A DNA stretch of 64,000 nucleotides from an uncultured bacterium. GTDB lineage: Bacteria > Armatimonadota > Abditibacteriia > Abditibacteriales > Abditibacteriaceae. Location: assembly GCA_963843795.1 (NCBI GenBank), contig CAWJLW010000006.1, positions 806,001-870,000 on the forward strand, given 5' to 3'. Shown in pieces: positions 45,001 through 48,000 of this stretch (position 1 is its first letter; every line of letters starts with the position of its first letter). A program made the position numbers.

Positions 45001-48000
45001 CATCGTGACAGAAAGTGGTCTGAGATTTTGCCGTTTGTGAAAATGAGAGAAATTGAGTTGCCCGCACCGTTGCAAAATTTGGTCGAGCGCTGGCCTAGCA
45101 GCCGTTTCGTGGTGCGGTTCGCATGGCGTTTTGGCGAGCGTTGGGGAATTGATCGCTGTGCGCTGATAGCTGCAGCAATGGCATTTTTTGGGTTGCTGTC
45201 GCTCTTTCCAATTTTGCTGGCGGCCATCACGATTTTAGGACGCGTTTTGGCCAATCGGCCCGATATTACGCAAGATTTTCTGCGCTTTGCCGGACAGTTT
45301 TTCCCCGGAGCAACCGGCGATATCTGGCGCGACCGCGCGACCGGCGAAGTCGAGGGCTTAGCGCAAGCTGCAGGTGGCTGGCTCGGTTTTTTCTCGCTAC
45401 TGTCGTTACTGTGGAGCGGGCGCGCGTTTTTCGATGCCTTAGGCGGCGTCTTGAACGTGATCTGGCCTGGCGCGCAACCGCGTTCCTGGCTTAATCATCA
45501 AATGGCGCTGTGGAGTACGTTCGGCGGCGCGGCCGTTTTATACTCACTTTCGCTCAGCACTACTTTTTTGTTGAAAACCCTGCACGCTATCAGCAATCGA
45601 TTGCCCGATTTCTGGTTCAACCGCCAACCGGTGTTATGGGATATTCTGGGCGCGCTCACTTCGTGGGCTTTGACGCTGTGCATGTTCTGGATGATTTATC
45701 GCTTCTTGCCCAACGCTAAGCGTGGTGTGCGCGGGCGACGCGCTCTTATCGCGGCGGTCGTCGCAGCGGGCGCTCTGGAACTGGCCAAATTCGCTTTTAG
45801 CACTTATCTACCCGACGCTACGCGCTACGGCACAATTTACGGTAGCTTGGCGGGTGTGATTGTAACGATGATGTGGCTCTATGTGTCGTCGTCAATTATT
45901 CTGCTGGGTGCCGAAGTCGCAGCGGTGTGGACGGAATTGACAAGTGACTGAAAACGCTTTGCAAGTACTTGCACGCTTAAATTATTATGAAAAAACGTGT
46001 TGCCACCGCCGCCATCGGCATTCCGATTGTCGCTCTTATTGTCCATCTCGGCCATTGGCCGTTTTTCGCGCTTGCTTCTCTGTGCGCGCTCTTATCGCTG
46101 CGAGAATTGCAAACTGCGTTCGCGCGCGTGATGTTTTCGATTCAATTGCGCTTAATTGCCGTTCCCGCTTATGCGACTTTGGCCGCGCTTTTATTAATGG
46201 TGCAATTGCACGTTAGCGCGCCTTTTTTCTGGTCGCTGCTGGGCGTTAGCATTTTGGCGCTGTGGATTTTCGGTATCGCGCAGTTTGGGCGCGACGGACA
46301 AAAAGGCGCCGGCCTATTACTGTCGCTCGCCATCACACAACTGGCGCTGGCATATTGCGCTCTGTGGATACTGGTAATTTTGCTGCGTGGGCGCGGTGAA
46401 GCGTGGTTCTGGCTGGCTTTAATCGGCGTGTGGAGTAGCGACATCGCGGCGTATTTCGGCGGACGCAAGTGGGGCAAAACCAAACTCACGTCTCTATCGC
46501 CGGGCAAAACACGCGAAGGCGCACTCGCTGGTTGGGTTGCTGCGTTTGTCATCAGCGGATTGTTGGGATTGTTGACCAAACACGGCATCGGCGCGGGCTT
46601 GGCGTGTGGCGCGTTAGTAGGAATTTTGGCACCGTTGGGCGATTTGGCGCAATCGCTGTGGAAGCGCGAACTGGGCTTGAAAGATTTGGGAAGTTTGTTG
46701 CCCGGACACGGCGGTATCACCGACCGCTGCGATTCATTGTTGTTCGCGTGTGTAGGCGTTTATATGTTGAGTTGGTTGTTTTAGTGATGCAAGTACTTGC
46801 AGCGCGGTCGGAGAACTGATGAAGAAATCAATTGTCGCGGTAGGTGCTTTCGCTTTGCTGATTTTGGCGCTGGCTTTGGCTTATCAAAGATTCAAACCGG
46901 CCAGAGCGTTGAGAACTCCAACTGCGTCACAAATTGCGGCTGCGTTTCCCGATGATACCAGAGAGATTTTCGAGCGTAGCGACAAGTTCATCTTGTTGTC
47001 GCTCGATCCGCTTTCGCTTCCCAACACAAACGCACCGAAGAGGAGCGAATTTCATGGCTGGTATATTCTGGGCCAAACGCAGATTAGCAATCCCAAAACG
47101 CAGTCTAAACTCCGTCGTGCTTACTACGATGGCTTGGTTGATACTTCTGGTGCCGCTGCGTGTTTCAGTCCACGCCATGGTATCCGCGCCGTGAAAATGG
47201 AAAAATGCTCGATTTAGTGATTTGTTTTCACTGCCATTTCGTTGAAGTTAATCTGAACGGCAAAAATTTAGGTTTCAAAAAAATTTCCTCATATCTGCAA
47301 GAGGCTTTTAACGAAGTTCTTACCGCGCATAATATAGCTTTGCCTAAAAATTGAGGCAAATCGTCATTCACACCAACGCCCGTATCGCTTCCTCCACATC
47401 CTCGAAACGAAAACGATAACCGCTCTCTGCAAGTACTTGCGGGATAACGCGCTGTGAATTCAATGCCATTTCACTCGCTTCGCCCAAAGTCAATTGCAAG
47501 CCAAATTTCGGTACCGGAAGATATGCCGGTTTGCCCAGAACGTGCGCCAATTTGCCCGCAAAGTCGCGTTGTCGTACCGGATTCGGCGACACCAAATTCA
47601 CTGCGCCAGAAATGCTTTCGTTTTCTAAAACGTGAATCAACGCGCCTACGACATCTTCGATTTCAATCCAACTCCACCACTGCGCGCCGCCGCCAATCGG
47701 GCCGCCCAAACCTAAGCGAAACGCGGGCAACATCGGCTTCAACGCACCGCCGCGAGTTGACAAAACCACACCAATGCGCGCTTTCACCACGCGGACGTTT
47801 AAGTCGCGCGCTGCATCAGCGGCGGCTTCCCAATCGCGGCATCACATCGGCCAAAAAGCCGCCACCGGGCGCGGATTTTTCGGTCAGAATTTCCTCACCG
47901 CAATCGCCGTAAATGCCAATCGCCGATGCGCAGATAAACGATTTTGGGCGCTCGTTTTCTGGCAATGCGGCCAGCGTTTTCACAATGAGATTCGTGCTGT

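What a model noticed while it worked through the whole genome (the two positions that open the first line are those of the whole stretch)
45987..46784. Armatimonadota lack every canonical phospholipid head-group synthase yet keep CdsA and Lgt
The genome has PlsX/Y/C, CdsA (here), Lgt, Lnt and MprF-type genes but no CDP-alcohol phosphatidyltransferase (PgsA/PssA/PIS) and no lipid phospholipase D (Cls), and the same gap runs through the family and most of the phylum. These bacteria likely make no PG, PE or cardiolipin by textbook routes and use an unknown CDP-DAG-consuming enzyme and a non-PG donor for Lgt. It would be a whole LPS-bearing phylum with an uncharted phospholipid pathway.
Evidence so far: PF01066: none in G000, 1/26 family relatives (18), 15/121 phylum genomes >=85% complete, several weak (19); rings in 13/14 controls, not D. 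radiodurans. PLD-family hits in G000 are only DISARM DrmC and Ppk1 (31). Divergent Deinococcota-type transferases find no homolog in G000 (82). CdsA in 100% of family and 87% of phylum, Lgt 89% and 91% (30). Also lacking in 15/26 genomes of the Neomoorella class (200). Searches 20, 22, 23, 33 found no report.
(Added by a program. Inside this text positions count along the whole contig: contig position 806,001 is position 1 of the stretch shown here. "Call 12" and the like, gene names such as g00115 and contig names such as C1 are that model's own, and its searches are not shown. The text may have been shortened before it was handed on; [...] marks where a part breaks off. The agent that wrote the report below was given it as the finding of a first reader that could run no searches.)

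Follow-up and report, generated by a model that had tools for sequence, protein, structure and literature searches.

The report
Candidate third class of phospholipid synthase
This bacterium, and most sampled members of its phylum, lack the standard enzymes that put head groups on phospholipids; they likely build the glycerate-amide lipids known from Deinococcus and Thermus instead, and an unstudied enzyme family (TTHA0179) is the likely, still untested, stand-in for the missing step.

Summary
The gap is real. The window gene is an intact single-copy CdsA. G000 has no CDP-alcohol phosphatidyltransferase, cardiolipin synthase or Psd by several sensitive searches. PF01066 rings in 38 of 221 phylum genomes, CdsA in 121 of 121.

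'Every' is too strong, and lipid data exist: a conference abstract reports that all phospholipids of Chthonomonas calidirosea are phosphatidylglyceroylalkylamines, the Deinococcus/Thermus type, whose enzymes are unidentified.

I found a candidate for the missing CDP-DAG-using step: the IspD-fold family of TTHA0179 (PDB 2DPW).
- Present in 219 of 221 Armatimonadota and 81 of 81 Deinococcota.
- Within 2.5 kb of cdsA in 24 of 70 scorable genomes.
- Present in 56 of 57 Bacillota that lack PF01066.
- Present in 198 of 200 Bacillota that have a PigE-like fatty-amine reductase.
- Proteobacterial members sit where Caulobacter CC_1153 sits, a gene needed for a ceramide-phosphoglycerate lipid.

Likely reaction: CDP-lipid + (phospho)glycerate gives lipid-phosphoglycerate + CMP. 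This is inferred, not shown, and the published CC_1153 TLC phenotype argues against this exact step.

The parts
45987..46784 (+). cdsA, phosphatidate cytidylyltransferase, 265 aa, the only copy in G000. The other genes of the proposed pathway lie outside the window, on contig C6: TTHA0179-family gene 1567027-1567827 (+, P0001); PigE-like reductase 3277664-3278797 (-) with partner gene 3278858-3279823 (-); PigE-like aminotransferase 3459548-3460846 (-); lgt 1150373-1151422 (+).
   Evidence: PF01148 E 9.7e-51 over residues 2-264; one match in the genome. Genes outside the window.

Best explanation
G000 and most sampled Armatimonadota lack PgsA/PssA-type and cardiolipin synthases and likely make phosphatidylglyceroyl-alkylamine lipids, with CdsA making CDP-DAG and the TTHA0179-family protein predicted to transfer the phosphatidyl group onto the 2-OH of glycerate or 3-phosphoglycerate, releasing CMP. 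A phosphatase would then remove any 3-phosphate. A split PigE-like reductase and aminotransferase would supply the fatty amine, an unassigned enzyme would form the amide, and glycosyltransferases would decorate the 3-OH. Lgt would take its diacylglyceryl group from this lipid, PA or CDP-DAG. Shown: gene presence and absence, fold, gene neighbours, co-distribution. From papers: the lipid class in one member of the phylum. Inferred: every enzymatic assignment. My odds: lipid class about 0.85; the family acts somewhere in this head-group pathway about 0.8; it is the CDP-DAG-consuming transferase itself about 0.5.
For: (1) LIPIDS. All C. calidirosea phospholipids are phosphatidylglyceroylalkylamines. 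The same head group occurs in Thermus and M. thermoacetica. (2) DISTRIBUTION. Strong match (E<=3.1e-35) in 219 of 221 Armatimonadota and 81 of 81 Deinococcota. (3) COMPLEMENTARITY in 331 Bacillota: both families 189, TTHA0179 only 56, PF01066 only 85, neither 1 against 14.8 expected (kin are not independent). 56 of the 57 PF01066-negative genomes keep CdsA. (4) NESTING. 198 of 200 Bacillota with the PigE-like reductase have the family, and 84 of 86 without the family lack the reductase. The reductase is in 56 of 61 Armatimonadota. (5) CONTEXT. Within 2.5 kb of cdsA in 24 of 70 genomes where both coordinates were listed, often as kinase-TTHA0179-cdsA. Second cdsA copies in G026, G055 and G128 each lie beside one. 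Other copies lie beside plsY, an MGDG-synthase-type gene, phosphatases and GDPD. cdsA linkage occurs in at least two branches of the family tree. (6) PROTEOBACTERIA. Three inspected plasmid members (A1 profile E 4e-39 to 5e-42, invariant residues kept) lie in sphingolipid clusters, two of them directly after the ceramide-synthase-like gene. That is the position of Caulobacter CC_1153, which is required for a ceramide-phosphoglycerate lipid and whose loss accumulates ceramide, as do the early-step mutants (PMC11324152). The authors note a CDP-DAG-synthase-like domain in CC_1161 and call for an unknown condensing enzyme. Z. mobilis keeps CC_1160, CC_1161 and CC_1153 but lacks CC_1159 and a full-length CC_1152 (S2 Table). 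(7) PROTEIN. Cytidylyltransferase-like fold (pLDDT 92; TM 0.77 to 2DPW). D110, R189, K190, D242 and D244 are 98-100% conserved in 320 sequences. Only 1 of 244 has a canonical G-x-G/S-x-R loop, whose Arg binds the CTP alpha and gamma phosphates in CpgD. A basic, hydrophobic helix pair at 191-211 (net +3.3) could dock on a membrane.
Against: (1) The CC_1153 mutant keeps and accumulates the TLC spot assigned to CPG and loses CPG2. My model predicts loss of CPG, so it holds only if that spot is a co-migrating intermediate; I saw only TLC for that mutant in the passages read. (2) The closest solved folds (IspD, KdsB, TarI, CMP-NeuAc synthetase) attack the alpha-phosphate of CTP, whereas phosphatidyl transfer needs attack on the beta-phosphate. 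(3) G000's single copy belongs to the ridA/ispE-linked branch, not the cdsA-linked one, and lies about 715 kb from cdsA. 53 of 142 copies lie near ispE, and 0 of 30 Bacillota cdsA loci carry it. (4) 189 of 331 Bacillota have both families, so it is not a simple replacement, and lineage alone can produce such tables. (5) The 24-of-70 count leans upward, because A1 was built from cdsA-adjacent copies and only the best 150 matches were listed. (6) F. ferrireducens lacks PF01066 and has both the family and the reductase, yet its Table 1 row lists no alkylamines. (7) The only lipid report for the phylum that I read is a conference abstract on one species. I recall TLC-level listings of PE, DPG, PG, PI or PC for Fimbriimonas and Abditibacterium type strains (recalled, not found in the library). 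(8) That CC_1153 belongs to this family rests on synteny and annotation, not on an alignment.
Confidence: 0.5

Rival explanations
1. Same lipids and same family, but a different step. The protein is a true nucleotidyltransferase that activates (phospho)glycerate or a lipid-glycerate intermediate. CdsA itself, or another unrecognised protein, makes the phosphatidyl bond.
For: The fold is that of NTP-using cytidylyltransferases. Weak CofC matches. The CC_1153 authors propose NTP activation, and the mutant loses CPG2 rather than CPG. E. coli CdsA is needed to form GlcNAc-PP-DAG from PA, CTP and GlcNAc-1-P (PMC10881803), so CdsA may act beyond CDP-DAG synthesis.
Against: The canonical triphosphate-binding Arg loop is missing. 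The CDP-glycerate maker is already known and is a different gene, CpgD/CC_1152. G000 has no CDP-alcohol transferase that could use a CDP-glycerate. Z. mobilis keeps CC_1153 without CC_1159 or a full CC_1152.
Confidence: 0.3
2. The TTHA0179 family is an old Terrabacteria housekeeping gene tied to the MEP/isoprenoid pathway or another CDP-metabolite pathway. Its link to PgsA loss is shared ancestry, and the real transferase is still unfound.
For: The ancestral site is right after ispE, sometimes before dxs. One apparent IspE fusion (L213). Closest fold after 2DPW is IspD. It co-exists with PF01066 in 189 genomes.
Against: A separate IspD is present in 5 of 5 genomes tested. Repeated cdsA, lipid kinase and plsY neighbours. 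Proteobacterial copies lie in sphingolipid clusters, with a lipid phenotype for CC_1153. The fatty-amine reductase is nested within its distribution.
Confidence: 0.12
3. G000 does make PG or PE, using a CDP-alcohol transferase too divergent to detect or one lying in the unassembled 8% of the genome.
For: 92% completeness. PF01066 and my first profile missed a divergent transferase in G092. Apparent frameshifts in this assembly. Recalled TLC lipid lists for type strains.
Against: 183 of 221 phylum genomes, including single-contig ones, give no hit. No cardiolipin synthase in 121 genomes and no Psd in 5. Four independent searches of G000 are blank. The one structural lipid report found only glyceroyl-alkylamine phospholipids.
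Confidence: 0.08

Closest known systems
Phosphatidylglyceroyl-alkylamine phosphoglycolipids of Deinococcus, Thermus, Chthonomonas and Moorella (PMC9636437; PMC3367263; PMC13274423)
   Same: Same predicted product; the producing lineages share the TTHA0179 family and a PigE-like reductase.
   Different: The papers read assign no enzymes; no lipid analysis exists here for G000 or its family.
Ceramide phosphoglycerate pathway of Caulobacter crescentus: CpgB/CC_1160, CpgC/CC_1161, CC_1153, CpgD/CC_1152, CpgA/CC_1159 (PMC9393093; PMC11324152; PMC12275187)
   Same: A lipid-phospho-glycerate linkage; lipid kinase, CDP-lipid-synthase-like protein and a MobA-like protein at the position of the family's plasmid members.
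   Different: Ceramide rather than DAG backbone, and no amide. CC_1153 is reported as needed for CPG2, not CPG. G000 gave no convincing CpgA, CpgC or CpgD homolog.
PgsA/PssA CDP-alcohol phosphatidyltransferases (PF01066) with a PGP phosphatase
   Same: Proposed to work like it: CDP-DAG + alcohol-phosphate gives phosphatidyl-X + CMP, then a phosphatase.
   Different: No sequence, motif or fold relation: a soluble alpha/beta protein with no predicted transmembrane segment.
IspD / KdsB / TarI / CofC / MobA nucleotidyltransferases (PF12804, PF01128, PF02348) and TTHA0179 (PDB 2DPW)
   Same: Same fold (TM 0.55-0.65; 0.77 to 2DPW), with conserved acidic metal-site residues.
   Different: Below every NCBIfam cut-off; lacks the G-x-G/S-x-R loop; has an inserted helical region with invariant RK. 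2DPW is a 'hypothetical protein' with no paper found.
PigE (prodigiosin MAP branch; NF053554)
   Same: Both halves, reductase and aminotransferase, match G000 genes.
   Different: Split into unlinked genes in G000, below cut-off; fatty-amine synthesis is not tested.

Membership tests
CdsA (window gene) | PF01148 over full length, above cut-off | tested here: met
   173.6 bits against cut-off 24, residues 2-264
CdsA (window gene) | CTP + PA to CDP-DAG activity | not testable with these tools
   inferred from the family
CDP-alcohol phosphatidyltransferase (any G000 gene) | PF01066 match or D-x2-D-G-x2-A-R...G-x3-D-x3-D motif (motif recalled) | tested here: not met
PLD-type cardiolipin synthase | TIGR04265 match | tested here: not met
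   0 of 121 phylum genomes including G000; the PF13091 hits are other genes
TTHA0179/2DPW family (P0001) | full-length sequence and fold match to 2DPW | tested here: met
   profile E 4.9e-50; Foldseek TM 0.77, E 1.7e-20
IspD (P0001) | TIGR00453 above cut-off and canonical N-terminal Arg loop | tested here: not met
   19.6 bits against 181.3; a separate IspD-like gene exists at E 1.9e-50; loop absent
CpgD phosphoglycerate cytidylyltransferase (P0001) | COG1213-type sequence with the Arg16 loop | tested here: not met
   the CpgD-like gene of L262 does not match profile A1; the family member is its neighbour
CC_1153 orthologous group | sequence identity with CC_1153 | not tested
   sequence not in hand; only synteny, MobA/CobY-like annotation, and a deletion primer that reads K-A-L-I-L-A-G by eye
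Glyceroyl-alkylamine lipid producers | lipid detected chemically | not testable with these tools
   reported for C. calidirosea only; none for G000
Glyceroyl-alkylamine lipid producers | genes able to turn acyl thioester into amine | tested here: inconclusive
   PigE-like halves present; activity unknown

The most novel reading that the evidence does not exclude
TTHA0179/CC_1153 proteins are a third, fold-independent class of phospholipid head-group synthase, beside CDP-alcohol transferases and PLD enzymes: a nucleotidyltransferase fold turned into a CDP-lipid:glycerate phosphotransferase. It commits CDP-DAG to the three-tailed lipids of Armatimonadota, Deinococcota and deep Bacillota, and CDP-ceramide to the anionic sphingolipid of Caulobacter. 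Its spread suggests an ancient Terrabacteria membrane chemistry.
Probability: 0.45. Interest if true: 0.92.

Novelty: new variant of a known kind. Interest (0 to 1): 0.76.

Why it matters
The structure of the Deinococcus/Thermus phosphoglycolipids has been known since the 1980s (titles in the reference list), and a 2022 paper still lists their enzymes as unidentified. This work names a single-copy candidate with a solved structure (2DPW) in genetically tractable Thermus and Deinococcus. It ties that candidate to the open step of the Caulobacter ceramide-phosphoglycerate pathway and gives a gene marker predicting which lineages make these lipids. Searches found no paper assigning this family to lipid synthesis in these phyla. 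Most subscription papers are not searched, and Bale et al. 2025 (Syst Appl Microbiol 48:126609), which may discuss genes, was not available.

Tried and rejected
Hidden PgsA in G000: motif scan, two custom profiles, stop read-through, tblastn and NF040950 were all blank. The best tblastn pieces (E 0.013, 0.042) fall on no transferase-like gene.

Window neighbours of cdsA (BrkB-type, 5-FTHF cyclo-ligase, PfkA-like): of the 20-kb loci fetched, the order is kept in one close relative (L067) only, and I rejected them as pathway parts.

Lipocone (PTDSS-like) enzymes: I read PMC12419801 sections 16 (part 1) and 23 and found no link to this phylum. I did not search G000 for them, so they are not excluded.

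Family = IspD substitute: rejected. Family = CpgD: my first guess from the plasmid context, rejected.

Fused longer forms: none among 7,995 candidates, weak evidence.

The one double-negative genome, G300, has CdsA and the reductase but no family match with either alignment; an assembly gap is possible but not shown. G044 and G127 likewise show only generic hits.

The wide VIA-align search was not obtained, so only Foldseek was used. No complex prediction was run, as no binding is claimed. Literature search for CCNA_01211 was swamped by unrelated hits, and 10.64898/2026.04.12.717747 had no relevant terms. The fold of the CpgC-like protein rests on the paper's remark and my reading of its motif by eye; Pfam and PDB sequence searches were blank.
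Full report
OBSERVATION. Window 45987-46784 (+) encodes a 265-aa CdsA (PF01148 E 9.7e-51), the only copy in G000. Record names of close hits place G000 among Abditibacteriaceae. G000 (92% complete) has no PF01066 match at E<=10, while 13 of 14 controls ring, D. radiodurans being the exception. Motif scans of 47,362 six-frame ORFs, a profile from 26 phylum CDP-alcohol transferases (best E 1.3), a 27-sequence profile on stop-read-through chunks (best E 1.2) and NF040950 are all blank. PF13091 marks two genes that read as Ppk1-like and DrmC-like (names recalled). 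Lgt, two MprF-type genes and LpxC are present; Psd was not found.

PHYLUM. PF01066 is found in 38 of 221 genomes (own family 0 of 20), CdsA in 121 of 121 and cardiolipin synthase in 0 of 121. The title's 'every' overstates. Four genomes of one genus carry PgsA-strength hits, and G092 of the own family has a divergent transferase that Pfam misses. My first profile missed it too, so the counts are lower bounds.

THE LIPIDS ARE KNOWN. A 2011 meeting abstract (PMC3367263 section 33, read whole) states that all phospholipids of Chthonomonas calidirosea have a phosphatidylglyceroylalkylamine structure. Table 1 of PMC13274423 lists N-glyceroyl alkylamines for Moorella thermoacetica, and its references include a 2025 paper titled on such lipids dominating several Bacillota (passages; title only). 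PMC9636437 (passages) says the enzymes for the third chain and the polar head in Thermus are unidentified. PMC8027125 (passages) notes that PA and CDP-DAG can serve Lgt inefficiently. So the product class and a non-PG donor for Lgt have precedent; the enzymes are the open question.

A CANDIDATE FROM cdsA NEIGHBOURHOODS. In 20-kb cdsA loci from across the phylum, a MobA-like gene recurs next to cdsA, often as lipid kinase-gene-cdsA or gene-MFS-cdsA. Its G000 member lies at C6:1567027-1567827, outside the window, two genes after a YegS-type lipid kinase. Alignment A1 matches Thermus TTHA0179, PDB 2DPW, at E 4.9e-50. The G000 model (pLDDT 92) matches 2DPW at TM 0.77, then IspD, CMP-NeuAc synthetase, KdsB and TarI. 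The family is strong in 219 of 221 Armatimonadota and 81 of 81 Deinococcota; 1,341 representatives reach E<=1e-30. Of 70 genomes for which both coordinates were listed, 24 have it within 2.5 kb of cdsA. This count leans upward because A1 came from such copies and only the best 150 matches were listed; among fetched cdsA loci the script counted 11 of 40 genomes. Second cdsA copies in G026, G055 and G128 each have one beside them, and other copies adjoin plsY, an MGDG-synthase-type gene, phosphatases or GDPD. A tree of 142 copies shows cdsA linkage in at least two branches. G000's single copy, however, falls in the ridA/ispE-linked branch, and 53 copies lie near ispE. A separate IspD exists in 5 of 5 genomes tested.

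CO-DISTRIBUTION. In 331 Bacillota drawn evenly (centre G225, F. ferrireducens by record title), the family and PF01066 are both present in 189, the family alone in 56, PF01066 alone in 85 and neither in 1, against 14.8 expected. 56 of the 57 PF01066-negative genomes keep CdsA, in uppS-cdsA-dxr-like context without the family (0 of 30 loci). Following a lead from earlier scan notes, I found both halves of PigE in G000: a reductase at C6:3277664-3278797 and an aminotransferase at C6:3459548-3460846. The reductase half is in 56 of 61 Armatimonadota and in 200 of the 331 Bacillota, 198 of which have the family; 84 of 86 family-negative genomes lack it, and 40 of the 57 PF01066-negative genomes have it (single-protein query). 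Kin are not independent, so the P values overstate.

A SECOND PATHWAY WITH THE SAME LINKAGE. tblastn of P0001 found 16 plasmid records. The three I opened carry the gene in sphingolipid clusters; they match A1 at E 4e-39 to 5e-42 and keep the invariant residues. In Roseomonas and Diaphorobacter it follows the ceramide-synthase-like gene, the place of Caulobacter CC_1153, annotated as a 291-aa MobA-like protein (supplement passages). It is not CpgD, the CDP-glycerate synthase (PMC12275187 parts 1-2 of 4; PMC13228409 parts 1-2 of 5), which is the neighbouring gene. In PMC11324152 (passages, sections 7 and 9, S2 Table part 1) the CC_1153 mutant grows slowly, accumulates ceramide, loses CPG2 and shows more of the TLC spot called CPG. 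The authors note a CDP-DAG-synthase-like domain in CC_1161 and suggest an unknown enzyme condenses glycerate with activated ceramide. Z. mobilis keeps CC_1160, CC_1161 and CC_1153 without CC_1159 or a full CC_1152. PMC9393093 (passages) shows that the CpgC mutant keeps ceramide phosphate and lacks CPG. One supplementary PDF of PMC11324152 could not be read.

MECHANISM. In both settings the family occurs with a lipid kinase and a CDP-lipid synthase, and both products contain lipid-phosphate-glycerate; the Caulobacter head group has no glycerate amide, so the shared step is not amidation. D110, R189, K190, D242 and D244 are 98-100% conserved in 320 sequences. The canonical G-x-G/S-x-R loop, whose Arg holds the triphosphate in CpgD, appears in 1 of 244. 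Residues 191-211 form a basic, hydrophobic helix pair that could dock on the membrane. I therefore favour CDP-DAG + (3-phospho)glycerate giving phosphatidyl-2-glycerate(-phosphate) + CMP, followed by dephosphorylation, amidation with a fatty amine and glycosylation. All of these assignments are inferred.

AGAINST. The CC_1153 mutant retains the CPG spot; the fold normally attacks the alpha-phosphate; G000's copy is far from cdsA; many Bacillota hold both systems; F. ferrireducens has the genes but its table row lists no alkylamines; CC_1153 membership is by synteny; and I recall TLC-level reports of ordinary phospholipids in two type strains that I could not check.

NOVELTY. Paper searches found no assignment of this family to lipid synthesis in these phyla. 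Other papers consulted without bearing on the result: PMC12419801 (passages, two sections), PMC10881803 (passages), PMC13159169 (passages), PMC11804483 (passages and discussion; its Fig. 6 marks phyla lacking PgsA but the text does not name them), PMC9789136 (a reference only). Earlier AI notes of this scan reach the same lipid reading and mention unnamed candidate families; they are not independent support, and none was found by sequence or with the ceramide link.

VERDICT. A real, near phylum-wide gap, explained by a known lipid class with unknown enzymes, and now with a named, testable candidate. Interest 0.76.

Noticed in passing
window 52857-55266 and 47368-48259: The polynucleotide phosphorylase gene and a YfcH-like epimerase gene are each split over two frames (names by eye). 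Probably assembly indels; no homopolymer run of 7 or more lies at either break.
   Followed up: partly
L061:8045-10271 (G092): Divergent CDP-alcohol transferase + acyltransferase + second cdsA module, ynbA/ynbB-like (name recalled); the transferase escapes PF01066.
   Followed up: partly
L213:2922-4691 (G472): One 590-aa ORF joins IspE to a TTHA0179-family domain; seen once, so it could be a real fusion or a lost stop.
   Followed up: no
L217:5031-12415 (G146): Lipid cluster: MGDG-synthase-type gene, plsY, TTHA0179-family gene, radical SAM/SPASM protein, divergent CDP-alcohol transferase, metallophosphoesterase, MFS transporter. The radical SAM gene also adjoins the family in L223 and L108.
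   Followed up: partly
L005-L007, L010, L021, L022: Several of the phylum's divergent CDP-alcohol transferases sit beside a metallophosphoesterase and/or an MFS transporter, suggesting an accessory head-group module rather than PgsA.
   Followed up: no
L261:13036-13989, L262:828-1760, L260:1-643: The CpgC-like proteins carry a YGS...D-x-Y motif that looks, by eye and from recall, like Tam41-type CDP-DAG synthases; Pfam and PDB sequence searches were blank.
   Followed up: partly
G000 C6:776259-777851: One 531-aa ORF is the best hit for both the fabZ-like and lpxA-like genes of L074, an apparent FabZ-LpxA fusion.
   Followed up: no
genomes G001, G017, G005, G021, G034, G047, G073, G029, G055: The fatty-amine reductase lies in long open frames (530-670 aa), as in the Deinococcota genome G604 (585 aa), suggesting fused forms; family f11 (0 of 4) lacks it yet keeps the TTHA0179 family.
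   Followed up: no
Bacillota sample, G272, G289, G304, G315, G329 and 11 more: Sixteen genomes without the TTHA0179 family have only a weak PF01066 hit (E about 1e-16 to 1e-20), i.e. no PgsA-strength gene.
   Followed up: no
L062:8262-9083, L068:10229-11026: A HAD-family phosphatase (NagD-like by eye) lies directly upstream of cdsA in two genomes of the own family; candidate for the dephosphorylation step.
   Followed up: no
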